DNA of 64,000 nt, from the UHGV virus genome UHGV-0033085. One strand, written 5' to 3'. A program made the position numbers and the translations under genes. The stretch's first letter is position 1. Each line of letters starts with the position of its first letter. Origin of the DNA: a virus. A model generated the notes under the pieces. The model was not told the origin of the DNA and made no database searches. It saw only the letters and a list, made by a program, of their open reading frames with translations. Below, in pieces: positions 19,199 to 30,466 of the stretch.

Positions 19199-19988
19199 TA
19201 AAGCAATCCCTGAGCTTGGCTCTGACGTTATGCAGCAAATCTATCTCTGCGCCATAAATCGCTACCCTAATGAAGCGTGTGGCTTTCTGGTGAGAACTAA
19301 TGGCGACAAATATCGCTTTATGGAAGCGCGAAATGTTTCGGAGAACCCGCAGAGCACTTTTGTAATGCATGTTGACGACATTATGGCGGCAGAGGATGCA
19401 GGTGACGTAATCGCAATCTGGCATTCACATACTGATGAATCAGCAGAAGCATCTGATGCCGATCGTGCAGGCTGTGAAGCGACGGAAGTTCCGTGGATGA
19501 TTCTGGCTATTCGCAAGAATGTTGAGGGAGATGCCCCTTTCCATTTTAGCGAGATGAATGTGATCACACCTGATGGTTTCGAAATGCCATACCTGGGCAG
19601 ACCGTATGTATTTGGCGTATTCGATTGCTGGATGTTGTGTCGGGACTATTTGAAGCGTGAGTTTAACGTCGAACTAAACTCGAACGCACACCTGCATATT
19701 CCATCGTGGTACACCGGCGATAACGACATTCTCGATCAGAACTACCGTAACGAGGGATTGGTGCGTCTTGCGCCCGGAACAGAGCCTCAACGTGGGGACG
19801 TATTCTTTATCCAATACGGGAAAATGCCTGACCACTGCGCGGTTTATATCGGCGATGGAATGATTCTTCATCACCAGATCGACCGCCTAAGTTGTCGTGC
19901 TTATTACGGCGGAATGTATCAGAAACATACGACGCATCACTTGCGTCACAGAGACTTGCTCAAGGGAGATGAGACGTGTCTGAGTTAG
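19191..19988 (+). CDS. tail assembly protein (lambda gpK-like; MPN/JAMM + NlpC/P60 domains)
   Basis: JAMM-like motif IWHSHTDESAEASDAD; Cys/His of NlpC/P60-like C-terminal half (FDCWMLCRDY ... H). Confidence 0.65.
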   Translation: MGNKAIPELGSDVMQQIYLCAINRYPNEACGFLVRTNGDKYRFMEARNVSENPQSTFVMHVDDIMAAEDAGDVIAIWHSHTDESAEASDADRAGCEATEVPWMILAIRKNVEGDAPFHFSEMNVITPDGFEMPYLGRPYVFGVFDCWMLCRDYLKREFNVELNSNAHLHIPSWYTGDNDILDQNYRNEGLVRLAPGTEPQRGDVFFIQYGKMPDHCAVYIGDGMILHHQIDRLSCRAYYGGMYQKHTTHHLRHRDLLKGDETCLS

Positions 19989-20569
19989 TTCATGTGCAGC
20001 TTGGCGGCCCTATGGCTAAACATTTTGGCCGCCACTGGCATCTAAAGGTGCGCAATACAAAACAGGCTCTGGATTTAATTGAGGCCAACAAGCCTGGGTT
20101 TAAAGCATGGATGAAGCGCAACATCAAAACCTATGACAGATACCACATCCAGATCACCAATAAACAGGGCCACAAGTGGTCTGTGGACGAGAGTGAATAT
20201 CAGATGATGGGGCAGTCTGACAACATAGCCAAAATCCGCATTACCCCTGTTCCGCGAGGAAGCGGCGGTTCTGCTTTTGGGTGGTTTCAGACGGTAGTAG
20301 GAGCCGCTTTGTTGGTTGTATCGGCGGTAATGATGCCCGCTCTTGCGCCTCTCGGTTTGTCACTGATGATGGGCGGTATAGCGCAAATCATATCTCCGCA
20401 AGCCACTAACGAAAGTGTGAGGCAGGCGGATAACTCGAACTCTTATTACTTTGATGGACCTCAAAACACAACAAACCAGGGGAACCCTGTACAGCTTATC
20501 TATGGCGAGGAAATTTTAGTTGGCTCACAGGTCGTGAGTTCTTCTATCACCATCGACCAGCTTATGTAA
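19976..20569 (+). CDS. tail assembly protein (lambda gpI-like)
   Basis: 197-aa ORF with hydrophobic C-terminal segment, position between K-like and J-like genes. Confidence 0.55.
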   Translation: MSELVHVQLGGPMAKHFGRHWHLKVRNTKQALDLIEANKPGFKAWMKRNIKTYDRYHIQITNKQGHKWSVDESEYQMMGQSDNIAKIRITPVPRGSGGSAFGWFQTVVGAALLVVSAVMMPALAPLGLSLMMGGIAQIISPQATNESVRQADNSNSYYFDGPQNTTNQGNPVQLIYGEEILVGSQVVSSSITIDQLM

Positions 20570-20586
20570 TCAAGGATTTTTTGGAC

Positions 20587-23500
20587 ATGGAACAGTTCAA
20601 GAAGAAAAAATTACCGCTTCTTATTGCCGGTGCTGGTGGCAAGAAAAGTAAAAGCTCCAGCCGTACCCCGGTTGAAGCTGATGATACTGTCAATTCTCGT
20701 GCTATGGCAGCCATCCTCGACCTTCTTGGCGAGGGGGTTATCGGTGGCCTGGTAAATGGCGCAAAGTCGATCTTCATCGACGATTTACCGATCTTGAATG
20801 AAGATGGCTCTTCCAACTTCAGCGGTATTACATGGGATTTTCGTGACGGCTCACAAGACCAGACGCCAATGGCTGGTTTTGATTTTGTTGAAACGCCTAA
20901 GTCCGTAAATATTCAGCTTAAAAAAACACACGACGTTACGGTTTCAATCGATAACGATGAATCTGATCGCGTTCGTGTCATCATGAAATTCCCCTCTTTA
21001 CGTAGCGTTGATAAAAGCTCTGGCGATACAAATGGCACTACGGTGAAGTACAAATTCCAGATCGCCAACGGAGACGCAACATTTTCTGATGTGGTTGCAG
21101 AAGGTGAGAAAAGCGTTGATATCACGCTAACGGCAAAGAAAACAGGCGTGTATTACCGTAGCTATGAGCTGAAACTACCTAAGCCTGGTCGTGCATACAA
21201 GGTTAGGGTGATTCGCCTTACAGATGATAACAGTAGCCAGTACCTCTACAACGACACATGGGTTGATTCCATCGGTGAGATTGTCGACACGCCAATGAAC
21301 TACCCTAACTCTGCTCTTGTTGGCTTGAAGGTCAATTCAGAGCAGTTTGGTAGCACAATGCCTTCCCGTTCGTATTTGGTGCGCGGTATCAAAATCCGAG
21401 TACCGTCAAACTACAACGAATACACCAATACTTATGTCGGCGTATGGGACGGTACTTTTAAGCTGTTGTCTTCTTCAAACCCTGCGTGGATTCTCTACGA
21501 TTTGCTTACCAATACTCGGTATGGTCTTGGGCAATTTGTGTCGGAATCCATGATTGACCTCGGCCAGCTCTACCAGATTGGTCGATATTGTGACGAAGAG
21601 GTCGATGATGGCTTTGGGGGTAAAGAGAAACGCTTTGCAATCAATACGCAGATCACCAGTCGACAAGACGCATACCGATTAATTCAGGATATTGCCGGTG
21701 CATTCCGCGGCATGGTGTTTTGGGCTGGTGGCATGGTTAACATCATGCAGGATAGCCCATCAGATCCGGTAATGATGTTTACCAACTCCAACGTCAAAGA
21801 TGGACTGTTTACCTATAAAGGTTCTGCGCGTAAAGATCGCCCATCCGTTGCGCTCGTAACCTACAACAACAAGGAGGACGGTTATAAGCAAAATATCGAG
21901 TACGTTGAAGATCAGGACGCAATGCGCCGTTATGGTGAGCGTAAAACAGAAGTCGTAGCATTTGGATGTACAAGCCGAGGCCAGGCTCACCGAGTTGGTT
22001 TGTGGCTTTTGTATACCGCCAGAATGGAGTCGGATGTAATTACATTTACTGCCGGCTTAGACGCCTCATTTCTGATGCCCGGTGAAACCGTTCTGATTCA
22101 GAACAAATATCGTGCAGGTAAACGTAACTCCGGTCGAATTGTGGAGTTTACCAAAAACAGCATCACTCTCGATGCGCCTGTGTCGTTAGCTAAAAGCGGC
22201 AGCTTTATTCGGATATTGAATCAGGAAGGCAAAATCGTTGAACGCGATGTTCTTGAAACTGGCGAAAACATAACAAAGGTTACGTTTTCAAAAGCCCTGT
22301 CGTCAGCGGAAACGCCTGTTTTGAACGGTGTCTGGACAATTACAGAACCAGATCTCGAACCTATGCGCGTTCGCATCGTTAACATCGCGCAGGGGGAAAC
22401 GCCGGGTAGCTTTGACATCACCGCTGTTGAGAACAATCCGTCTAAATATGAGGCAATCGACAATGGTGCAACGCTGATCCCGCAGAATACGACGGTATTG
22501 GACCCAACTTACTCCAAGCCATCTAATCTGCAAATCACTGAAGGGACTTATCTCTCAAGCCCGGGCAACCTGTCAGTAAAACTGACTGCAACATGGGAAG
22601 GAAAATCTCCAGAGTATTGGATCAGTTGGCGACGTTCTGATGAAAACAATGTATCGAACTGGCAATCGGCGCGTGTAACCGAAGAGCAATACGAAATCGT
22701 TAATGTCGCGGAGAATGGACGCTACGACTTCCAGCTGTATGCGGTTTCATTCAACGGTAAAAAAACAGAGATTATCAGTACCGTTTATCAGGTGTTGGGC
22801 ACAATGACACCGCCGGATGCCCCAACGTCATTAACGGCCGTTGGAGACTATCGTAATGTGATACTGAATTGGGTTAATCCAGATTCGGTAGACCTTGATC
22901 ACATTAATGTTTACGCATCCCAGACCAACAATCTGGATACGGCGAAACTGATCGCAGAGTCTGCAAGCACCACCTTTACACATGCTGGTCTTGGGGATAG
23001 CGAAACGTGGTATTACTGGGTTCGAGCATCGAACAAGCGAGGTATGTTAAGCCCTCCGAACTCAAACTTGGGTACAGAGGCGACAACTCGCGATGTACTG
23101 TCGTTCCTGGCTGGCAAAATTACATCTTCCGAGCTTGGTCAGGCTCTGCTTGAGGACATCAACAGTAAAGCCTCTCAAGAAGCAGTTGACGAGTTAAATG
23201 AGCATATCAACCAGAGCGTCGAATCTTTGGAGGGGTCGGTAAACGACGTTAAGGAAGATATAGCTGAATTAGATAAGCAGTTCAGCGATAACCTCGCGAA
23301 TTTTGAAATAAAATTCAACGAGCGTAGCGATGCTTTGGAGAACGCACAAACCGAGCTTAAAGGTGAGGTTTCGGCAACGATCGACAAGGTCAATGAAGCG
23401 TTTGAAAAAATTGATGCTACTGATGCTGCAATTGTTGAAATCGAAAACACCGTATCTGAACACGATAAAGCTCTCGCTAATACAGTCGAGGCAATAAAGG

Positions 23501-25311
23501 CTGCAAGAGATGAAGCGGCGGCTCTTATTGCTAAGGAAAGCGAGGCTCGTGTAGAAGGTGATGCCGCAAACGCTAAACAACTGGAAGTGTTGCAGTCGAC
23601 GGTAGAGGAAAGTTCCGCAGCTGTTGAAGAAATGAAAAAGACGGTTGCAGAGGTCGATCGTGCCAGTGCAGAACTGACTACGAACATTGAGGCGTTAGCC
23701 AAAACAAATATTGACCTGGCTCTTCGTCAAGATGAAGACCAGCACAAGCAGATGGTCAATAACGCGAAGATCGCAACAACACAGAAAACCTTTGCTGATG
23801 ATATGTCTGCAATGGCCACGAAGGTTGAGGAAATTCGCGTAGAAATTGGCGAAGACATTAAGGCCAGTATTCTGGAAGAGTCCACCGCTCGTGCCGATGG
23901 CGATGAAGCGTTGGCAAAGCGTGTCACTCAGCTGCAATCTAAGTTTGAAGGAGATATCAGCGCGGCGATTAGTACAGAACAGGAGGCTCGTACATCTGCC
24001 GATGAAGCTTTGACGAAACAAATAACTCAGCTTGAGTCGAAAGTAAGCAACGATATTGTCGCAGCCATTAAGGAAGAGCAAGAAGCCCGAGCAACGGAAG
24101 ATTCGGCTCTGGCAAGCCAGATCACCCAACTTCAGGCAAAAGTTGATGATGATATTTCTGCTGCAATACGCAGTGAGCAGGAGGCGCGTGCGAGCGGAGA
24201 CTCTGCGTTAGCTAAACAAATAAACCAGCTTCAAGCAAAAGTTGACGGTGATATATCCGCCGCCATCACTCAGGAGCAGGAGGCCAGAGCAAGTGCTGAC
24301 GAGGCGCTCTCACGAGAAATTAACAGCCTGCGAGCACAGACCGGAACTGATATTGCCGCAGCGGTTGCTGTAGAGACAAAGGCAAGGACTGATGCCGATA
24401 GTGCATTGTCCACTCAGATTACGTCTCTTACAGCAAAAGCTAATGATCTCGAGGCATCTCTTGCCAGAGAAACAACGGCTCGTGCTGATGGTGATACCGC
24501 TTTAACAAAAGAGGTTTCAAGTTTAAAAGCACAGACTGCGAAAGATATTAGTGCGGCCGTTGCAGTTGAAACGCAGGCTCGAACTGATGCTGACTCGGCG
24601 TTATCATCTCAGATCACCAAACTGACCTCTCAATACAAAGAGGATATTAAAGCGGCTGTAGCAACCGAAACGAAAACGCGTACAGAGCAAGATGCGGCAC
24701 TGGCGACTCAAATCACAAACTTAGAGTCTCAAACAGCAGCCAACATTTCTGCGGCGGTCACAACTGAAACGACAGCGAGAACGCAGGCAGATAATGCTCT
24801 AAGTGGGCGAATCGACACTCTGAAAGCAGAGGTGGATGGAAATACCGCGACAATTCAACAGCAGGCAACAGCTATTGCTGATACCAACAAAAAAGTGTCA
24901 ACCGCGTGGACGTTGAAAATGGAGACTTCAACGAGCGGAGGGCAGAAGTATGTTGCTGGTATTGCGCTTGGTATCGACACCACTGGCCTTTCTCAGTTTT
25001 TGGTGCAGGCTGACAGGTTTGGTTTGGTCAACTCTGTTAACGGGAAGATCACCACGCCATTTGTTATCGAAAACAGTATCGCCTATATGAATGGTGCGTA
25101 TATCAAGGATGGCACAATCACCAATGCAAAAGTAGGCGATCTGCAATCTACCAATTTTGTTAGCGGTAGATCTGGATGGCGGTTCGGCAAAAATGGAACG
25201 CTTGAGATCAACGGTAATAGCGGGGGTAATGGGCGACTGGTCATAAATGGTCAGCGGATTGACGTTTATGACGATAACAACGTCCTACGAGTAAGAATTG
25301 GCCTTCTGTAA
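20587..25311 (+). CDS. central tail fibre / host specificity protein (lambda gpJ-like)
   Basis: about 1575 aa; conserved tip-attachment order; internal tandem repeats. Confidence 0.8.
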   Translation: MEQFKKKKLPLLIAGAGGKKSKSSSRTPVEADDTVNSRAMAAILDLLGEGVIGGLVNGAKSIFIDDLPILNEDGSSNFSGITWDFRDGSQDQTPMAGFDFVETPKSVNIQLKKTHDVTVSIDNDESDRVRVIMKFPSLRSVDKSSGDTNGTTVKYKFQIANGDATFSDVVAEGEKSVDITLTAKKTGVYYRSYELKLPKPGRAYKVRVIRLTDDNSSQYLYNDTWVDSIGEIVDTPMNYPNSALVGLKVNSEQFGSTMPSRSYLVRGIKIRVPSNYNEYTNTYVGVWDGTFKLLSSSNPAWILYDLLTNTRYGLGQFVSESMIDLGQLYQIGRYCDEEVDDGFGGKEKRFAINTQITSRQDAYRLIQDIAGAFRGMVFWAGGMVNIMQDSPSDPVMMFTNSNVKDGLFTYKGSARKDRPSVALVTYNNKEDGYKQNIEYVEDQDAMRRYGERKTEVVAFGCTSRGQAHRVGLWLLYTARMESDVITFTAGLDASFLMPGETVLIQNKYRAGKRNSGRIVEFTKNSITLDAPVSLAKSGSFIRILNQEGKIVERDVLETGENITKVTFSKALSSAETPVLNGVWTITEPDLEPMRVRIVNIAQGETPGSFDITAVENNPSKYEAIDNGATLIPQNTTVLDPTYSKPSNLQITEGTYLSSPGNLSVKLTATWEGKSPEYWISWRRSDENNVSNWQSARVTEEQYEIVNVAENGRYDFQLYAVSFNGKKTEIISTVYQVLGTMTPPDAPTSLTAVGDYRNVILNWVNPDSVDLDHINVYASQTNNLDTAKLIAESASTTFTHAGLGDSETWYYWVRASNKRGMLSPPNSNLGTEATTRDVLSFLAGKITSSELGQALLEDINSKASQEAVDELNEHINQSVESLEGSVNDVKEDIAELDKQFSDNLANFEIKFNERSDALENAQTELKGEVSATIDKVNEAFEKIDATDAAIVEIENTVSEHDKALANTVEAIKAARDEAAALIAKESEARVEGDAANAKQLEVLQSTVEESSAAVEEMKKTVAEVDRASAELTTNIEALAKTNIDLALRQDEDQHKQMVNNAKIATTQKTFADDMSAMATKVEEIRVEIGEDIKASILEESTARADGDEALAKRVTQLQSKFEGDISAAISTEQEARTSADEALTKQITQLESKVSNDIVAAIKEEQEARATEDSALASQITQLQAKVDDDISAAIRSEQEARASGDSALAKQINQLQAKVDGDISAAITQEQEARASADEALSREINSLRAQTGTDIAAAVAVETKARTDADSALSTQITSLTAKANDLEASLARETTARADGDTALTKEVSSLKAQTAKDISAAVAVETQARTDADSALSSQITKLTSQYKEDIKAAVATETKTRTEQDAALATQITNLESQTAANISAAVTTETTARTQADNALSGRIDTLKAEVDGNTATIQQQATAIADTNKKVSTAWTLKMETSTSGGQKYVAGIALGIDTTGLSQFLVQADRFGLVNSVNGKITTPFVIENSIAYMNGAYIKDGTITNAKVGDLQSTNFVSGRSGWRFGKNGTLEINGNSGGNGRLVINGQRIDVYDDNNVLRVRIGLL
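23860..24860 (+). repeat. degenerate tandem coding repeats (about 78 bp / 26 aa) inside J-like gene
   Basis: About 12 consecutive units of pattern D.AL..QIT.L..K...DI.AA...EQEAR. Confidence 0.6.
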
Positions 25312-25403
25312 TGTAGAAAAAAATATTTATATCGGTAAAAATAAGTAGGTACATACTTAATGGTGGGCAAGGATAGCCCACCAAATCAAGGAGCATATTC
25401 AAC

Positions 25404-28400
25404 ATGTGGTACAGGGAAGGTACTATCACATTTACACAGGGCAGCAATACTCTGGTTGGGGCAGGGACAGCCTGGAACGTAACAGCTAATGGTGTGTTGC
25501 CGGGGATGATCGTCATTGGCCCCGACAACAAGCTGTATGAGATCAAGCGCGTAACCAGTGATACGAACATTGTTCTCTCAGAACCTTATACCGGCGAAAC
25601 TCAGTCTGAAGTTCCGTGCCGAATCATTACGACCTATGAAGGCGACTTAACACAGTTTAGCGCGCGCTTTACTGCACTAATGTCGCGTATGTCGGCTGAT
25701 TCAAAGTCCATGCGCAGTTGGTTGACTGCTCTGGATGAGGTGACAATCGAGCGTGAAGACGGTACAGAAGTGACCGTTAAGCCGCTAATGCAGATCGTCA
25801 ACGAGCACAACGAAAACGTTGAGTGGTATAAAAATAACACTGACGCGATTAATGCTGCTGGCGACAAAGCTCGTGAGGCGGCGGCCAGTGCTGCCGCAGC
25901 AGCCGAAAGCGCCAATACCGCTGGAGAAAAAGCCTCTCAAGCGTCTCAAAGTGCATCCGCTGCGGCATCTTCACAAAGTGCTGCAAGTGCGAGTGCAACT
26001 GCTGCGAAAAAATCTGAAACGAACGCAGAATCAGCACATCTAGCGGCAGCAGAATCAGCGTCTGTAGCGTCGACCAAAGCATCGGAGGCAGCAACATCTG
26101 CGTCCAGTGCCTCTGCATCTAAGGATGCAGCCAAAGCATCAGAGACTAACGCTTCATCGAGTGCAAACGCGGCTGCATCATTTGCAACAGAAGCTGAAAA
26201 TTCGTCTAAGGCAGCAAAAGCGTCAGAGACAAACGCAAAAGCATCTGAAACGGCAGCCGGGCAGAGTGCATCGTCTGCAAACAGTTCGAAATCTGCGGCA
26301 GAAGCGTCAGCAAGCGCAGCCTCAGCAAGTGCGGATAGTGCTTCATCAAGTGCAACTGCGGCAGGAAAATCTGCGGATAGTGCATCGTCATCAGCGACAA
26401 TAGCTACCACAAAAGCGACAGAGGCGACAAGTCAGGCTACAGCTGCTAAAAATTCAGCATCGGCAGCAAAAACCTCTGAAACAAATGCAAAGGTCTCAGA
26501 AGACAATGCGGCTTCCTCTAAGGCGGCAGCTGCTGAATCTGCAAGTTCTGCGTCTGCATCAGCCACCTCAGCATCCGCTTCAAAAGATGAGGCGACCAAG
26601 CAGGCATCAGCAGCGAAGGGTAGTGCTTCAACGGCATCCACGAAAGCAACAGAGGCGGCAGGTAGTGCGACGGCTGCATCTCAGAGCAAAGCTGCTGCTG
26701 AATCCGCTGCGACCCGTGCAGAAGCTGCCGCTGATCGTGCTGAAGAGATCGCCGGTGCAGTTGCGATGGAAGACGCAAGCCTTACCACCAAAGGTGTTGT
26801 GAAACTTAGCAGTGCTGTCGATAGCACCAGTGAATCGCTGGCCGCAACGCCAAAGGCAGTTAAAGCAGTCAATGACAATGCGAACAGCAGGGTGCCATCT
26901 AACCGAAAAATTAACGGGAAAGCACTGACTGCGGATATCACATTAACGCCGAAAGATATTGGTACTTTAAATTCAATAACGATGTCTTTCTCTGGCGGGG
27001 CCGGGTGGTTCAAACTGGCTACTGTTACAATGCCACAAGCGAGTTCCATCGTTTACATCGCATTGATTGGTGGCGCTGGTTACAACGTCGGCTCCCCACA
27101 TCAGGCAGGCATTTCAGAACTGGTTCTACGAGCAGGCAATGGAAACCCCAAAGGGATTACAGGTGCTTTGTGGAAGCGTACAGCTGTCGGATTAACGAAT
27201 TTCGCCTGGATCAACACATCCGGCGATACATATGATATTTACGTTGAAATTGGCAATTATGCGACGAGTGTAAATATCCATTGGGATTGTACTGCAGATG
27301 CGTCAGTTTCTATTTATACATCGCCAACATATTCAGCGAGTAAGCCTTCCAGCGTTACCGATGGTGTTGTTTATACGATGTATAGCACACATCAGAAACC
27401 TACACCATCAGATATTGGAGCACTGCCAACAACCGGAGGAACAGTTTCAGGTCCGTTGTCTGTTACAGGTGGATTAACTGGTTCATTGAATGGTAATGCA
27501 AGTACAGCCACGAAATTGCAGACGGCAAGATCTATCGGTGGAGTTGTTTTCGACGGTTCTGCAAATATTAACCTTCCAGGTGTAAACACTACGGGTAATC
27601 AGAACACTACTGGTAATGCTGCAACTGCTACAAAACTTCAGACTGCAAGAAAAATATCCGGTGTTCCATTTGATGGTTCTACTGATATCACTTTAACCGC
27701 TGCGCATGTTGCCGCTTTCGCAAGAAGGGCAACAGGGTCATATGCGGATGCTGATGGTGGCGTTCCCTGGAATGCCGAATCAGGCGCTTACAATGTCACC
27801 AGCTCTGGCGAAAGCTATATTCTGGTTAACTTCTATACCGGAGTCGGAAGTTGCCGCACCCTGCAGATGAAGGCACATTACAGAAATAGAGGTCTGTTCT
27901 ACCGTTCTTCAAGAGACGGTTATGGTTTTGAAAGTGGTTGGGAGCAGGTTTACACGACTGGATTTATGCCTCAGCCGGCTGATATAAACGCACCAACCGC
28001 TGCCGCTGGATGGTTAAATAGTGGTAACGGAACGGCATTTACGACTGCTCAATTTATAACTTGGCTAAATAATCAGGGGGCATTTACAAACAAACATTGG
28101 ATCGCACGGTGCTCATGGACTTACGCCAACAATAATTATATAGACGACACTGGTTGCGGTAGGATCGATCTATCTGGTTCCGTGATTGAGGTGTTTAGTA
28201 ATAAGGCAACAAGCCACTACACTATTCGTGTTACAACGACAACAACATCAGGTCATGGTGGTGTTAATAATGCGGAATTTATTTATGTGTACAATGGGAG
28301 TGATTATGCGCCAGGCTGGCGTCGTTCTTATAACACTAGAAACAAACCAACAGCTTCTGATGTAGGAGCATTACCGCTTTCAGGTGGCACATTATCTGGA

Positions 28401-29303
28401 GGGTTGACGTCTTCTGGTGAGATCGTTTCAAAATATGCAAATGGTTTCCGCATTGCTTACGGTAACTATGGGTTCTTTATCCGTAATGACGGCGGAAGCA
28501 CATATTTCATGCTAACAGCATCAGGAGACACATTAGGTTCATGGAACGGTTTGCGACCTATTACAATTAATAATACCAGCGGTGCTGTATCAATTGGTAA
28601 TGGACTAAATGTTACTGGTGGCGTAAATGGTAGTTTGAACGGTAATGCTTCAACAGCCACAAAATTGCAGACAGCAAGGAAAATTGCTGGTGTGGCGTTT
28701 GATGGCTCTGCCGATATTACTTTGACTGCGGCTAACCTTAATGCTTATACGAAAACAGAGGTAACAAACCTTCTAAGTTCCTATGCAAGCAGATCATCAC
28801 TGACAGGCTATAGTGGCAACCTGGATATTATTGCTGAAACACTGGTTGTCAAATCAGGCGGTAGTGGAGGGTTTGCTATATGGGATATTGGCACAACTAC
28901 TAGCGGTGCCAATATGTACATTGATCCAAACCCAGGTATCAATACAGTTTGGCGTTCAACATCTTCAAGGCGCTATAAAAAGGAAATTGAAACATTACAA
29001 GATCGATATGCTGATGAACTTTTGTCATTAAGACCTGTTTGGTATCGTTCAATTTGTCGAGGTGACCGAAAGGATTGGGGGTATTACGGCCTTATTGCTG
29101 AAGAGGTTGGTGAGATTGCCCCGCAATATGTCCATTGGCGTGAACCAACAAATAATGATTCTCCAGAAGATATTTCCTCAAATGGTATGGTCGCTGAAGG
29201 GGTGATGTATGAGCGTTTGGTTGTACCACTCATTCATCATATTCAGCAATTGACCAAAAGGGTTGAGGAGCTTGAAACGAAGTTAAATTCACCTAAAGAA
29301 TAA
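25404..29303 (+). CDS. long tail fibre protein with C-terminal intramolecular chaperone (S74-like) domain
   Basis: Ala/Ser-rich low-complexity shaft; three copies of NGNASTATKLQTAR-type motif; C-terminal YGLIAEEV...P auto-chaperone-like block. Confidence 0.75.
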   Translation: MWYREGTITFTQGSNTLVGAGTAWNVTANGVLPGMIVIGPDNKLYEIKRVTSDTNIVLSEPYTGETQSEVPCRIITTYEGDLTQFSARFTALMSRMSADSKSMRSWLTALDEVTIEREDGTEVTVKPLMQIVNEHNENVEWYKNNTDAINAAGDKAREAAASAAAAAESANTAGEKASQASQSASAAASSQSAASASATAAKKSETNAESAHLAAAESASVASTKASEAATSASSASASKDAAKASETNASSSANAAASFATEAENSSKAAKASETNAKASETAAGQSASSANSSKSAAEASASAASASADSASSSATAAGKSADSASSSATIATTKATEATSQATAAKNSASAAKTSETNAKVSEDNAASSKAAAAESASSASASATSASASKDEATKQASAAKGSASTASTKATEAAGSATAASQSKAAAESAATRAEAAADRAEEIAGAVAMEDASLTTKGVVKLSSAVDSTSESLAATPKAVKAVNDNANSRVPSNRKINGKALTADITLTPKDIGTLNSITMSFSGGAGWFKLATVTMPQASSIVYIALIGGAGYNVGSPHQAGISELVLRAGNGNPKGITGALWKRTAVGLTNFAWINTSGDTYDIYVEIGNYATSVNIHWDCTADASVSIYTSPTYSASKPSSVTDGVVYTMYSTHQKPTPSDIGALPTTGGTVSGPLSVTGGLTGSLNGNASTATKLQTARSIGGVVFDGSANINLPGVNTTGNQNTTGNAATATKLQTARKISGVPFDGSTDITLTAAHVAAFARRATGSYADADGGVPWNAESGAYNVTSSGESYILVNFYTGVGSCRTLQMKAHYRNRGLFYRSSRDGYGFESGWEQVYTTGFMPQPADINAPTAAAGWLNSGNGTAFTTAQFITWLNNQGAFTNKHWIARCSWTYANNNYIDDTGCGRIDLSGSVIEVFSNKATSHYTIRVTTTTTSGHGGVNNAEFIYVYNGSDYAPGWRRSYNTRNKPTASDVGALPLSGGTLSGGLTSSGEIVSKYANGFRIAYGNYGFFIRNDGGSTYFMLTASGDTLGSWNGLRPITINNTSGAVSIGNGLNVTGGVNGSLNGNASTATKLQTARKIAGVAFDGSADITLTAANLNAYTKTEVTNLLSSYASRSSLTGYSGNLDIIAETLVVKSGGSGGFAIWDIGTTTSGANMYIDPNPGINTVWRSTSSRRYKKEIETLQDRYADELLSLRPVWYRSICRGDRKDWGYYGLIAEEVGEIAPQYVHWREPTNNDSPEDISSNGMVAEGVMYERLVVPLIHHIQQLTKRVEELETKLNSPKE

Positions 29304-29363
29304 ACAACTTCAATCGGGGCTGGAACTAAACCAGCCCCTGCTTAAAAGTATAAGGATATATTT

Positions 29364-29618
29364 ATGAGCTATGGTGCACAGGTATGGTCGCCATCAAGAC
29401 AGGAGATGGTCGATGCGTTGGCCCCTGTTTATTACCTCGATTATTTTACTCCCTCTGGTTCTGGAAGTAGAACATATGAGGTTGAGGCGGGATTGGGAAT
29501 CGACTATTACATAATGGACGTAACCAATGGGAAATACACAAGTCTTACGGTTTCTGGAAATACCATTTCATGGTCTGGAGCTAGTGGCAATTTAAACATA
29601 TTGGTTTTTCAAAAATAA
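29364..29618 (+). CDS. hypothetical protein (tail fibre-associated cluster)
   Basis: 84-aa ORF with RBS, TAATG-coupled to next ORF. Confidence 0.35.
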   Translation: MSYGAQVWSPSRQEMVDALAPVYYLDYFTPSGSGSRTYEVEAGLGIDYYIMDVTNGKYTSLTVSGNTISWSGASGNLNILVFQK

Positions 29619-29920
29619 TGTACGGAAGCAAGATATATCGATCTGACGGGAAGGTCTGGATGTCTCCTTCTTTGTCTCCTATCGTTTTTCAGAGAAAGCA
29701 GGTTGTTTCTTTGTCTGGCGGGACAGAGTTTAACACCCAAATATCTCCAGATCGTTCACCGATGATTTTTGTTGCCTATTCGAAAGCTGTTTCATTAATA
29801 GCCAACAGAATAGTGCGTAACAACCAGGTGATTTACAGTTTCGGAGGTCAGGGTAGCGACTCTAGTGCCACGATATACGTATTTTCGAAAGGTATAGCCA
29901 AAAAGAAACTTGGGGCATGA
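29618..29920 (+). CDS. hypothetical protein (tail fibre-associated cluster)
   Basis: 100-aa ORF, translationally coupled. Confidence 0.35.
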   Translation: MYGSKIYRSDGKVWMSPSLSPIVFQRKQVVSLSGGTEFNTQISPDRSPMIFVAYSKAVSLIANRIVRNNQVIYSFGGQGSDSSATIYVFSKGIAKKKLGA

Positions 29921-30225
29921 GTTTTTTCAATGCGCGAGGAGAGGAGATCTATAATACGGCAAATATCCCACTTTCATTTACCTTTCTTAATAATACGGAG
30001 TGGAACAGTTCTGGAGGGCATGTTTTTGATTACCCGCCAGCGATAATCCCAACATATGCAAATGTGTTCGCGGTTCCAGTACCGGGCGGGGCCATGACAA
30101 TGGTTTATGGATATGCGGCATATGGAAATACTGTTAGTTCCATATTCGTAAACCAACTTAATGGCGGCCATAGTTTTAGCGTAAATGGCAGAGTACCGGT
30201 AATAAATAGAAATCTGTATAACTGA
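29917..30225 (+). CDS. hypothetical protein (tail fibre-associated cluster)
   Basis: 102-aa ORF, ATGA-coupled. Confidence 0.35.
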   Translation: MSFFNARGEEIYNTANIPLSFTFLNNTEWNSSGGHVFDYPPAIIPTYANVFAVPVPGGAMTMVYGYAAYGNTVSSIFVNQLNGGHSFSVNGRVPVINRNLYN

Positions 30226-30235
30226 TGAGTAAACG

Positions 30236-30466
30236 ATGAAAAGATTATTTCTAACAATAGCTGTTGTTCTCTCTCTTACTGGCTGTCAGAAATTGCCGAC
30301 ACCCATATGTTATGGTGAGGCTATCATTGGTGGACAGGAGACAGTCATACCTATATATGCTGTTAAAAAGGTTAACGGCTATACCTTATACAAAGCGGGT
30401 AGCATCTATAACTGGCGATGGGTTGGAGTAGGTGCTTTCTCATCAGTGCGTTGCAATGCTGAATGA
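30236..30466 (+). CDS. small lipoprotein
   Basis: Signal peptide MKRLFLTIAVVLSLTGC with lipobox LTGC. Confidence 0.5.
   Translation: MKRLFLTIAVVLSLTGCQKLPTPICYGEAIIGGQETVIPIYAVKKVNGYTLYKAGSIYNWRWVGVGAFSSVRCNAE

What the first reader, a model, noticed from the sequence alone, without database searches (positions are those of the whole stretch)
25404..29303. Modular long tail fibre: low-complexity Ala/Ser shaft, triplicated NGNA(S/A)TATKLQTAR motif and C-terminal auto-chaperone
The 1299-aa fibre has an Ala/Ser/Thr-rich low-complexity region (about 25850-26760). It carries three copies of a conserved fibre motif (around 27480, 27600 and 28620). Its C-terminal block (NPGINTVWRSTSSRRYKK...YGLIAEEVGEIAP) resembles the intramolecular chaperone/S74 self-cleaving domain of endosialidase-type fibres. 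The distal domains between the motif copies (about 27700-28600) are the likely receptor-binding or enzymatic part.
Basis: partly seen in the sequence, partly recalled or inferred. Interest (0 to 1): 0.45.

Follow-up and report, generated by a model that had tools for sequence, protein, structure and literature searches.

The report
Mosaic phage-plasmid side tail fibre
This is the side tail fibre gene of an SSU5-like phage-plasmid of E. coli, assembled from well-known fibre modules and ending in a self-cleaving folding domain; it is a tidy example of module shuffling but an ordinary kind of gene.

Summary
ORF 25404-29303 (+) encodes a 1299-aa protein directly after a J-like central tail fibre, in a window about 96% identical to 110-kb SSU5-like E. 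coli phage-plasmids.

- **Ala/Ser/Thr-rich stretch (aa 151-450):** it is an unbroken heptad repeat, with Ala at one position in 43 of 43 heptads. This implies a coiled-coil rod of about 45 nm.
- **Motif:** GNA(S/A)TATKLQTAR occurs exactly three times.
- **C-terminus:** it is a Peptidase_S74 intramolecular chaperone. It scores above the Pfam threshold, and its predicted fold matches the MyRF, GA-1 and endoNF chaperone domains. It has an invariant Ser1187/Lys1192 dyad. This predicts cleavage after Thr1186, giving a 120.6-kDa mature fibre and a 13.3-kDa released domain.

The region between the motif copies is not enzymatic. It consists of Mu S'-like, gp37_C-like and T4 gp34-like knobs. Upstream lies a predicted jelly-roll domain.

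Close relatives carry the same modules in different numbers and orders, each flanked by the motif. The window's third motif copy is a DNA chimera of two copies in a 1432-aa relative. The B knob and the tip cassette are the parts that vary, so the receptor-binding site is unresolved.

Verdict: a new member of a known kind, of low interest.

The parts
25404..29303 (+). Side tail fibre gene, 1299 aa (134.0 kDa precursor)
   Evidence: ORF list and translation. PHROG tail-fibre families. It lies directly after the J-like central fibre gene at 20581-25311. It is syntenic with the annotated tail fibre genes of E. coli SSU5-like plasmids and of phage Cyrano.
25388..25393 (+). Shine-Dalgarno sequence AAGGAG, 10 nt before the ATG
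   Evidence: Read directly from the sequence.
25404..25853 (+). N-terminal anchor domain, aa 1-150; inferred to attach the fibre to the tail tip
   Evidence: 99% identical in four relatives whose distal parts differ. It is the only part that still matches phage SSU5 at the DNA level (nt 1-515 of the ORF, 78%). The attachment function is inferred from this conservation pattern.
25854..26753 (+). Heptad coiled-coil shaft, aa 151-450: 43 uninterrupted heptads with consensus x-A-x-x-S-A-(T/S), and a higher-order repeat of 77 aa (231 nt)
   Evidence: Ala occupies register 1 in 43/43 heptads, Ser register 4 in 31/43 and Ala register 5 in 29/43. Fourier power at period 3.5 is 6.56, against a maximum of 2.43 in shuffles. 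The longest Ala i,i+7 run in 2000 shuffles is 14. Direct repeats are spaced 231 nt apart (families D4 and D6).
26778..26900 (+). Phage_fiber_2 (PF03406) 'collar' motif, aa 459-499
   Evidence: Pfam E 1.1e-19, 70.1 bits against a cut-off of 22, on the sub-sequence. It aligns to residues 105-156 of Mu S and S'.
26970..27383 (+). Predicted jelly-roll beta-sandwich domain, aa ~523-660
27492..27575 (+). Junction motif copy 1 (M1), aa 697-724
   Evidence: Regex hit and alignment.
27612..27695 (+). Junction motif copy 2 (M2), aa 737-764
27714..28007 (+). Module A: gp37_C-like knob, aa 771-868
   Evidence: PF12604 E 1.3e-6, 28.8 bits against a cut-off of 22.5. It aligns to Mu S' 8ju3 residues 324-421. 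In relatives it is absent or sits at a different position.
27981..28361 (+). Module B: Mu S'-like knob, aa 860-986
   Evidence: Aligns to 8ju3 residues 201-326 with stretch E-value 5.7e-35. It is only 63-65% identical in three relatives whose flanking modules are 92-98% identical. A B-like domain forms the C-terminal end of the Cyrano-type fibres.
28362..28628 (+). T4 gp34 / Mu S-type trimerisation knob, aa ~987-1075
   Evidence: PF21446 E 1.2e-29 over aa 956-1055. PDB hits 5yvq (Mu S residues 235-339) and 4uxe/5nxf (T4 gp34).
28641..28724 (+). Junction motif copy 3 (M3), aa 1080-1107; a recombinant copy
   Evidence: Its 5' half and the upstream 300 nt match motif copy 3 of plasmid pGMI17-003_2 (96%). 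Its 3' half and the downstream 300 nt match that plasmid's copy 4 (98%). The crossover lies in the codons for T-A of NAS-TA-TKLQTAR.
28725..28961 (+). Distal tip retained after cleavage, aa 1108-1186: junction stretch 1108-1127, variable stretch ~1128-1160, then a conserved pre-cleavage stretch 1161-1186
   Evidence: Similarity to Cyrano-type fibres ends at nt 28785, aa 1127. Most of the distant homologues among the 150 listed begin to match at query residues ~40-60, which is aa ~1145-1165. T1165, R1184, S1185 and T1186 are nearly invariant.
28962..29300 (+). Peptidase_S74 intramolecular chaperone, aa 1187-1299 (13.3 kDa). Predicted nucleophile Ser1187 (codon 28962-28964) and base Lys1192 (codon 28977-28979). 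Predicted scissile bond Thr1186|Ser1187.
   Evidence: PF13884 at 24.8-30.0 bits against a cut-off of 22, with profile position 1 on S1187. S1187, S1188, Y1191, K1192 and GxIAEE are invariant in 29 homologues. The AF2 model has pLDDT 86-97 here. Foldseek finds MyRF ICA 7dc3 at E 3.7e-5 with probability 1.0, then 3gud and 3gw6.

Best explanation
This is the side (lateral) tail fibre of an SSU5-like siphovirus phage-plasmid of E. coli. It is a homotrimeric adhesin built from interchangeable modules.

Inferred working order:
1. The conserved N-terminal 150 aa dock the fibre on the tail tip next to the J-like central fibre.
2. A 43-heptad coiled coil with a small-residue (Ala) core forms a thin rod of about 45 nm.
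3. A beta-structured distal half follows: collar motif, jelly-roll sandwich, two junction motifs, gp37_C-like knob A, Mu S'-like knob B, gp34-like knob, a third junction motif and a short tip.
4. The C-terminal 113-aa S74 domain trimerises first and templates folding of the preceding trimeric beta structure. Ser1187, activated by Lys1192, then cuts the Thr1186-Ser1187 bond and the chaperone leaves. No separate tail-fibre assembly protein is needed, and none is encoded downstream.
5. The mature 1186-aa fibre makes the first, reversible contact with a surface structure of the host. The central fibre then makes the irreversible contact.

Host specificity is set by the exchangeable distal modules, with the tip cassette and knob B as the candidates.

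The 28-aa GNA(S/A)TATKLQTAR...FDGS..I.L motif is a short trimeric connector that brackets each module. It is also the point at which modules are gained, lost or moved in frame.

Shown here: the gene, its module homologies, the S74 fold and dyad, the heptad periodicity, and a recombination junction inside the motif. Inferred: trimer formation, cleavage, attachment site and receptor contact.
For: - **Identity and context:**. The gene order is tail assembly protein, J-like fibre, this gene, small accessory (moron) genes and cor, then holin, endolysin and Rz.
- **S74 domain:** Pfam above threshold. The dyad and the GLIAEE motif are invariant in 29 homologues. Profile alignment puts S1187..K1192 on the SDERLK of 8jov, although that hit is weak (E 0.23). 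The fold search's ten best hits are all MyRF, GA-1 or endoNF chaperone domains. In nearly all of the 150 best homologues listed, out of 4267 homologous cluster representatives, the match ends at or near the protein's C-terminus. The S-x4-K dyad and cleavage N-terminal to the Ser were established experimentally for endoNF and MyRF (PMC8326128).
- **No Tfa:** the downstream ORFs match phrog_557, phrog_425, Cor, phrog_5093 (a family of unknown function, at the position where Cyrano's holin is annotated), endolysin and Rz.
- **Coiled coil:**
- **Modules:**
- **Motif as connector:** a profile of the copies hits the C-terminal stretch of phage L Dec (6e3c residues 98-134, E 1e-4) and a tail fibre (8vbx, E 3e-3).
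- **Module shuffling at the motif:** four relatives read M-M-A-B-gp34-M-S74, M-M-A-B-gp34-M-A'-M-S74, M-M-M-B-gp34-M-A'-M-S74 and M-M-M-B-gp34-M-A-M-B'. The window's M3 is a chimera of two copies.
- **Exchange of the tip:** 48 E. coli plasmids carry this cassette, while about 87 share only its first 70 nt and then diverge.
- **Variation map:** anchor 99%, jelly-roll 93-98% and gp34-like 92-96% identical, against knob B 63-65% and tip 15-24% in the alternative type.
Against: - Cleavage, trimer formation and receptor binding were not and could not be tested here.
- Both structure models are monomers. The tip aa 1105-1165 is poorly modelled (pLDDT 40-62).
- The stretch of the tip specific to this cassette is only about 33 residues (aa 1128-1160). 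The 26 residues before the cut are shared with the close cassette relatives, and several of them are nearly invariant in more distant homologues. That leaves little room for a dedicated receptor-binding domain of the T5 pb1 kind.
- Fold search did not return T5 pb1.
- The module comparison rests on four relatives only.
- The exact 1299-aa arrangement is on record from a single metagenome contig.
- Absence of a Tfa gene also holds for Cyrano-type fibres that lack S74, so it does not discriminate.
Confidence: 0.8

Rival explanations
1. One reading: receptor recognition resides in the internal knobs between the motif copies (modules A and B, aa 771-986, perhaps together with the jelly-roll domain). 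On this view the S74 cassette is only a folding cap that leaves a generic stub.
For: - Knob B is the most divergent retained module among close relatives: 63-65% identical, against 92-98% for its neighbours.
- A B-like domain is the C-terminal end of Cyrano-type fibres.
- Module A belongs to the gp37_C family.
- Only about 33 residues of the mature tip are cassette-specific.
- Fibres with more than one receptor-binding domain have been described (PMC11990801).
Against: - In the solved Mu fibres, the homologous domains lie proximal to a further C-terminal stretch (8ju3 residues 422-488; 5yvq residues 340-504). From my own recollection of the Mu fibre work, not checked here, the chaperone-bound receptor-binding tip lies in that stretch.
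- The tip cassette is itself exchanged among otherwise near-identical plasmids.
- The cassette exists as a separate gene in T1-like and lambdoid phages. That would be odd for a pure folding cap.
Confidence: 0.35
2. The S74 domain is retained and not cleaved, because it is inactive or serves only as a permanent trimerisation domain.
For: No cleavage data exist for this protein. The Pfam score is only modestly above threshold (24.8-30 bits against 22).
Against: Ser1187, Lys1192 and Tyr1191 are invariant, and Tyr1214 is nearly invariant, across 29 homologues down to about 27% identity. The fold is confidently that of cleaving chaperone domains.
Confidence: 0.1
3. The 1299-aa arrangement is an assembly artefact or a defective deletion derivative of the common 1432-aa fibre.
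For: The exact protein is recorded on one ENA metagenome contig only. It equals the 1432-aa form minus one 133-aa module. A neighbouring gene carries a frameshift.
Against: - The two parental motif copies share only short exact matches (8 nt or fewer around the junction), too short for an assembler to collapse them.
- The deletion is exactly in frame and regenerates an intact motif.
- Relatives with 3 to 5 motif copies exist in complete isolate genomes.
Confidence: 0.05
4. The fibre is an enzymatic depolymerase or tailspike-type protein, as the resemblance to endosialidase might suggest.
For: The S74 domain was first described in endosialidases. The jelly-roll domain's best structural match is a domain of the tailspike-like hydrolase WceF.
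Against: No beta-helix, sialidase, lyase or other catalytic family was found at E up to 10 in any segment or in NCBIfam. The WceF match most probably corresponds to its non-catalytic sandwich domain (inferred from aligned length and fold; PMC7949094).
Confidence: 0.03

Closest known systems
Tail fibre of E. coli SSU5-like phage-plasmids, e.g. pGMI17-003_2 (WP_412101495.1, 'tail fiber domain-containing protein', full ORF 1432 aa) and p4_0.2 (WP_245394457.1, 1383 aa)
   Same: Same locus, same N-terminal anchor, same 43-heptad coil, same collar and jelly-roll, same gp34-like knob, and the same S74 tip at 97-100% identity.
   Different: The window lacks the extra gp37_C-like module and the fourth motif copy of pGMI. 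Compared with p4_0.2, it has module A where p4_0.2 has a third motif copy, and it carries a different knob-B allele (65% identical).
Phage Cyrano tail fibre CYRAN_21 (1341 aa) and pG749_2-type fibres
   Same: Identical anchor and proximal half. The same junction stretch runs up to aa 1127.
   Different: These fibres end in a B-like knob without any S74 domain. They also lack the accessory-gene block (the phrog_557 and phrog_425 genes and cor) that follows the fibre gene in the window.
Phage Mu tail fibres S (PDB 5YVQ) and S' (PDB 8JU3)
   Same: The collar motif, knobs A and B, and the gp34-like domain are homologous, with E 1e-63 and 2.5e-34.
   Different: Modules A and B are in the opposite order here. 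From general knowledge of Mu, not tested here, its fibres are about 500 aa, lie in the invertible G segment, and need the separate Tfa chaperones U and U'. This fibre is 1299 aa, ends in an intramolecular chaperone, and has no Tfa gene.
Peptidase S74 / ICA domains: K1F endosialidase (3GW6), GA-1 gp12 (3GUD), T5 pb1, MyRF (7DC3)
   Same: Domain family, fold, S-x4-K dyad, C-terminal position and long terminal helix.
   Different: The passenger is a long composite fibre rather than a sialidase or the T5 receptor-binding domain. There is no detectable similarity to T5 pb1 outside the chaperone. Cleavage is untested.
Drexlerviridae tail fibre gp28 of Cronobacter phages CRES7/CRES9 (gp34-type trimerisation region followed by an ICA domain)
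   Same: The same pairing of IPR048388/PF21446 with a C-terminal ICA domain, and a predicted coiled coil followed by intertwined beta structure (PMC12090712).
   Different: That protein is much shorter and belongs to a different phage family. No direct sequence comparison was made here.
Free-standing ~230-aa S74 proteins of T1-like phages (e.g. KarlJaspers bas06_0035, 'putative lateral tail fiber chaperone') and lambdoid prophages (PhiR49_1)
   Same: 47-57% identical over aa ~1115-1298, covering both the tip and the chaperone.
   Different: They are separate genes with their own short N-terminal coiled coil, placed after Stf and a ~93-aa ORF. Here the cassette is fused in frame to the fibre.

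Membership tests
Peptidase_S74 / intramolecular chaperone auto-processing domain (PF13884, MEROPS S74) | Profile-HMM match above the curated threshold | tested here: met
   24.8 bits on the whole protein and 30.0 bits on aa 1187-1299, against a cut-off of 22. Profile positions 1-57 of 58 are matched.
Peptidase_S74 / intramolecular chaperone auto-processing domain (PF13884, MEROPS S74) | Ser-Lys catalytic dyad spaced S-x4-K at the start of the domain (endoNF S911/K916; MyRF S587/K592) | tested here: met
   S1187 sits at profile position 1 and K1192 is five residues later. Both are invariant in 29 homologues. They align to the SDERLK of 8jov, though that hit is weak (E 0.23). The definition of the dyad is taken from PMC8326128.
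Peptidase_S74 / intramolecular chaperone auto-processing domain (PF13884, MEROPS S74) | Characteristic fold ending in a long C-terminal helix | tested here: met
   The AF2 model has pLDDT 86-97 over the domain and a helix at aa 1269-1295. Foldseek finds 7dc3 at E 3.7e-5 with probability 1.0, followed by 3gud and 3gw6.
Peptidase_S74 / intramolecular chaperone auto-processing domain (PF13884, MEROPS S74) | Located at the extreme C-terminus of a trimeric fibre or spike | tested here: met
   The domain ends at the stop codon. The same position is seen in nearly all of the 150 best homologues listed.
Peptidase_S74 / intramolecular chaperone auto-processing domain (PF13884, MEROPS S74) | Autocatalytic release after trimer assembly | not testable with these tools
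   This needs expression of wild type against S1187A and K1192A, or mass spectrometry of virions.
T4 gp34-type trimerisation domain (PF21446) | Profile-HMM match above threshold and similarity to solved gp34 and Mu S structures | tested here: met
   103.6 bits against a cut-off of 27 over aa 956-1055. PDB hits 4uxe, 5nxf and 5yvq with E 4e-22 to 2.5e-34.
Phage_fiber_2 repeat (PF03406) | Profile-HMM match above threshold | tested here: met
   70.1 bits against a cut-off of 22 at aa 459-499 when the segment is scanned alone. It was not listed in the whole-protein scan. This family is the collar motif, not the triplicated motif.
gp37_C (PF12604) | Profile-HMM match above threshold | tested here: met
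   28.8 bits against a cut-off of 22.5 at aa 783-874, on the segment scan.
Tfa-dependent fibres (Mu S/U, P2 H/G, lambda Stf/Tfa type) | A tail-fibre assembly (Tfa) gene immediately downstream | tested here: not met
   The seven ORFs downstream match phrog_557, phrog_425 (two ORFs), Cor, phrog_5093 (a family of unknown function; Cyrano annotates the gene at this position as holin), endolysin and Rz-like spanin. None is a tail-fibre assembly family.
T5 pb1-type L-shaped fibre | A pb1-like receptor-binding domain preceding the chaperone | tested here: inconclusive
   No pb1 entry appears among the PDB sequence or fold hits. However, the tip is poorly modelled as a monomer.
Endosialidase / tailspike depolymerases | A catalytic beta-propeller or beta-helix domain | tested here: not met
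   No such Pfam or NCBIfam family was found in any segment at E up to 10.

The most novel reading that the evidence does not exclude
The fibre is multivalent, with several modules that each bind a different surface structure: the jelly-roll sandwich, knob A, knob B and the chaperone-folded tip. The 28-aa GNA(S/A)TATKLQTAR motif would then be a dedicated in-frame splice point. It would let phage-plasmids add, drop or reorder these binding modules, and so tune host range combinatorially within one gene.
Probability: 0.2. Interest if true: 0.45.

Novelty: new member of a known kind. Interest (0 to 1): 0.2.

Why it matters
SSU5-like phage-plasmids are common in clinical Enterobacteriaceae, and some carry resistance genes (PMC9600943). 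Their host range therefore bears on how such elements spread.

This gene and its relatives give a clean small-scale picture of how one fibre gene is rebuilt from a fixed set of modules. A recombination junction is caught inside a 28-aa connector motif.

None of the components is new. The practical value lies in three things:
- better annotation, namely the module map, the predicted cleavage site, and RefSeq start codons that omit the anchor domain;
- a defined set of swap experiments;
- little more than that.

Tried and rejected
- **NCBIfam scan of the whole protein:** no family.
- **Homologue search with the N-terminal 150 aa:** it returned only truncated fragments of 254 aa or less, so it gave no view of full-length architectures. 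All three homologue searches listed only proteins shorter than about 340 aa.
- **phmmer of the motif region against PDB:** only chance-level hits. A profile of ten copies was needed to reach Dec and gp47.
- **Literature search for the motif strings:** nothing relevant.
- **Tandem Repeats Finder on the gene:** only a trivial 9-nt array. The coil repeats are too diverged at the DNA level.
- **blastp of the protein against itself at E 1e-3:** it did not report the motif copies.
- **Promoter and terminator scan around the gene:** no more sites than in shuffled sequence.
- **GC profile:** the higher GC of the coil region reflects Ala codons and is not evidence of foreign origin.
- **Downstream small ORFs as part of the S74 cassette:** considered and dropped. 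They show no similarity to the genes flanking the free-standing cassette in T1-like or lambdoid phages.
- **Recent duplication as the origin of the three motif copies:** considered and rejected. They are only 62-78% identical at the DNA level, with many synonymous differences.

Full report
**1. The observation**

The ORF 25404-29303 (+) exists exactly as described, with an ATG start and 1299 codons. An AAGGAG ribosome-binding site lies 10 nt upstream.

The Ala/Ser/Thr-rich stretch is aa 151-450, nt 25854-26753. A+S+T make up 0.68-0.80 of each 50-aa block there.

The motif GN[AS][AS]TATKLQTAR starts at aa 697, 737 and 1080, which is nt 27492, 27612 and 28641. No 9-mer recurs in 200 shuffles of the protein.

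The quoted C-terminal strings are present at aa 1176-1193 and 1228-1240.

**2. Context**

A 24-kb stretch of the window around the gene (nt 17000-41000) is about 96% identical to ~110-kb non-mobilisable E. coli plasmids. The fibre gene matches fibre genes on such plasmids and in the phages CMS-2020a and Cyrano, and its first 515 nt match Salmonella phage SSU5. The element is therefore an SSU5-like phage-plasmid.

The gene order is: tail assembly protein (19976-20569), a 1576-aa J-like central fibre (20581-25311), this gene, then three small ORFs (phrog_557 and a split phrog_425). After these come cor, a phrog_5093 ORF (a family of unknown function; Cyrano annotates the gene at this position as holin), endolysin and Rz (compare). 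The gene occupies the side-tail-fibre position of a lambda-like tail module.

The exact 1299-aa sequence is on record only from one 78.5-kb ENA metagenome contig. Its 90%-identity cluster has 546 members, which NCBI names tail fibre proteins.

**3. Anatomy**

- **aa 1-150, anchor.** This part is 99% identical in four relatives whose distal parts differ. It is the only part still similar to SSU5 at the DNA level. An anchor role is inferred from that pattern.
- **aa 151-450, coiled coil.** This is not loose low complexity. Ala occupies one heptad position in 43 of 43 consecutive heptads (aa 152 to 446), Ser the position three residues later in 31 of 43, and Ala the next in 29 of 43.
  - Fourier power at period 3.5 is 6.56, against a shuffle maximum of 2.43.
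  - The longest such Ala run in 2000 shuffles is 14.
  - There is also a 77-aa (11-heptad) super-repeat.
  - Relatives that are only 72% identical in the middle of this region keep all 43 heptads. A T1-like fibre has 13 and a lambdoid Stf has 19.
  - I infer a parallel alpha-helical coiled coil with a small-residue core, about 45 nm long (300 residues at about 0.15 nm each).
- **aa 459-499, collar.** This is the Pfam Phage_fiber_2 motif shared with Mu S and S'.
- **Junction motif copies M1 and M2.**
- **aa 771-868, knob A.** It belongs to the gp37_C family and matches Mu S' residues 324-421.
- **aa 860-986, knob B.** It matches Mu S' residues 201-326. A and B are thus in the opposite order to Mu S'.
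- **aa ~987-1075, gp34-like knob.** This is the T4 gp34 / Mu S trimerisation knob (PF21446, E 1e-29).
- **Junction motif copy M3.**
- **aa 1108-1186, tip.**
- **aa 1187-1299, S74 domain.**

**4. The C-terminal domain**

- PF13884 scores above its gathering cut-off, with profile position 1 on Ser1187.
- In an alignment of 29 homologues down to about 27% identity, S1187, S1188, Y1191, K1192 and the G-x-IAEE motif are invariant.
- The S-x4-K spacing equals that of the experimentally proven dyads S911/K916 in endoNF and S587/K592 in MyRF. In both, the cut is N-terminal to the Ser (PMC8326128).
- An AF2 model is confident over the domain (pLDDT 86-97). Its ten best PDB fold matches are all intramolecular-chaperone domains: MyRF 7dc3 (E 3.7e-5), GA-1 3gud and endoNF 3gw6.
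- A library-wide search finds 4267 homologous cluster representatives. In nearly all of the 150 best listed, the match lies at or near the C-terminus of proteins 167-1284 aa long.

Membership in S74 is therefore met on every feature that can be tested in silico. Only cleavage itself remains untested. The prediction is a cut at Thr1186|Ser1187, giving a 120.6-kDa mature fibre and a 13.3-kDa released fragment.

No tail-fibre assembly gene follows the fibre. That fits a self-chaperoned fibre, although Cyrano-type fibres without S74 lack one too.

**5. The motif and module shuffling**

The three copies are only 62-78% identical at the DNA level, with many synonymous changes. They are therefore old and kept by selection on the protein.

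The motif has no Pfam family. A profile of ten copies does reach two PDB entries: the C-terminal stretch of phage L Dec (6e3c, E 1e-4) and a tail fibre (8vbx). Both carry a longer version of the motif with a 7-residue insert. I take this, as an inference, to mean that the motif is a short trimeric connector.

Four close relatives carry the same modules in different arrangements:

| Fibre | Module order |
|---|---|
| Window (1299 aa) | M-M-A-B-gp34-M-S74 |
| pGMI17-003_2 (1432 aa) | M-M-A-B-gp34-M-A'-M-S74 |
| p4_0.2 (1383 aa) | M-M-M-B-gp34-M-A'-M-S74 |
| Cyrano and pG749_2 (1341-1342 aa) | M-M-M-B-gp34-M-A-M-B', no S74 |

Each of the movable knob modules (A, A', the B-gp34 unit and the tip) is bracketed by the motif. 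The window's M3 is a DNA chimera. Its 5' half and upstream flank match pGMI copy 3 (96%), and its 3' half and downstream flank match pGMI copy 4 (98%). The switch lies within the codons for T-A of NAS-TA-TKLQTAR.

This is direct evidence for an in-frame module loss or gain inside the motif. The two parental copies share too little exact identity for an assembler to have collapsed them.

**6. Where is the receptor bound?**

Per-module identities to the relatives:

| Module | Identity to relatives |
|---|---|
| Anchor | 99% |
| Collar | 96-98% |
| Jelly-roll | 93-98% |
| gp34-like knob | 92-96% |
| Knob A | present, absent or moved |
| Knob B | 63-65% in three of four relatives |
| Tip and chaperone | 97-100% (S74 type) or unrelated (Cyrano type) |

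In complete E. coli genomes, the tip cassette DNA is found on 135 plasmids and on no chromosome. Of these, 48 hold most of it, and about 87 share only its first 70 nt and then diverge. The left edge of the exchange is at nt 28785 and the right edge at about 30466. The alternative type therefore also lacks the three small ORFs and cor.

The cassette also occurs as a free-standing ~230-aa gene after Stf in T1-like and lambdoid phages.

On the other side, the cassette-specific part of the mature tip is only about 33 residues (aa 1128-1160). The last 26 residues before the cut are shared with the close cassette relatives, and several of them are nearly invariant in more distant homologues.

Both the tip and knob B are therefore candidates, and I cannot decide between them.

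**7. Comparison with what is known, and verdict**

All components belong to described families. The pairing of a gp34-type trimerisation region with a C-terminal ICA domain has been reported for Drexlerviridae fibres (PMC12090712). Fibres with several binding domains and T5-like chaperone-bearing tips have been described in the BASEL collection (PMC11990801).

The gene is a new arrangement within a known kind. The points worth recording are the perfect 43-heptad Ala register, the recombination junction caught inside the motif, and the reversed A/B order relative to Mu S'. Interest is low.

**8. Limits**

- Both structure models are monomers built from shallow alignments.
- The module comparison uses four relatives.
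- Trimerisation, cleavage, attachment and receptor binding are all inferences.

Noticed in passing
window 25854-26753: The 'low-complexity' region has Ala at one heptad position in 43 of 43 consecutive heptads with no stutter, plus a 231-nt (11-heptad) super-repeat. Relatives only 72% identical here keep all 43 heptads. I found no description of this strict Ala register in tail fibres in the paper library.
   Followed up: yes
window 28641-28724; L001 (pGMI17-003_2) motif copies at aa 1080 and 1213: The window's third motif copy is a chimera of two copies of the 1432-aa relative. This equals an exact in-frame loss or gain of a 133-aa gp37_C-like module, with the crossover inside the motif.
   Followed up: yes
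window 27714-28361: Knobs A and B are in the opposite order to their homologues in Mu S' (8ju3: B at residues 201-326, A at 324-421). In p4_0.2 and Cyrano, module A lies after the gp34-like knob instead.
   Followed up: partly
window 29618-30225 (junction at 29891-29921): The two ORFs of 100 and 102 aa, both phrog_425, are one 188-aa gene in relatives. The window has an A5 run where L001 and L005 have A6, which produces a frameshift. It may be a real mutation or a sequencing error in a homopolymer.
   Followed up: yes
window 30236-30466: A cor gene (phrog_1119, Cor superinfection exclusion lipoprotein) lies downstream. From general knowledge, Cor blocks FhuA, which would suggest that the J-like central fibre uses FhuA and that the side fibre is only the primary, reversible adhesin. 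This was not tested.
   Followed up: no
window 28786-30466 versus L006 (pG749_2) and L002 (Cyrano): The S74 tip is linked to the accessory-gene block (the phrog_557 and phrog_425 genes and cor). Cyrano-type elements replace the whole 1.7-kb stretch with a ~0.6-kb B-like tip that is followed directly by the holin-position gene.
   Followed up: partly
L001 8001-8384; L006 931-1314: RefSeq annotates the fibre genes of pGMI17-003_2 and pG749_2 as starting 128 codons downstream of the conserved MWYREG start. The frame is open throughout (confirmed for both records), so the annotation leaves out most of the anchor domain.
   Followed up: partly
L003 4881-5558 (KarlJaspers); L004 4854-5558 (PhiR49_1): Homologues of the tip-plus-S74 cassette are separate ~230-aa genes placed after Stf and a ~93-aa ORF. 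In BASEL phages they are annotated 'putative lateral tail fiber chaperone'. The conserved dyad suggests they are small self-cleaving fibre or tip proteins rather than chaperones acting in trans.
   Followed up: partly
window 25362-25382: A perfect 7-bp hairpin (GGTGGGC, 7-nt loop, GCCCACC) lies between the J-like gene and the fibre's ribosome-binding site. It has no T-run and its function is unknown.
   Followed up: no
window 25634-27049, both strands: About a dozen ORFs of 64-154 aa overlap the coil region in other frames and on the minus strand. They are by-products of the GCN/AGC-rich repeat and are not genes.
   Followed up: no
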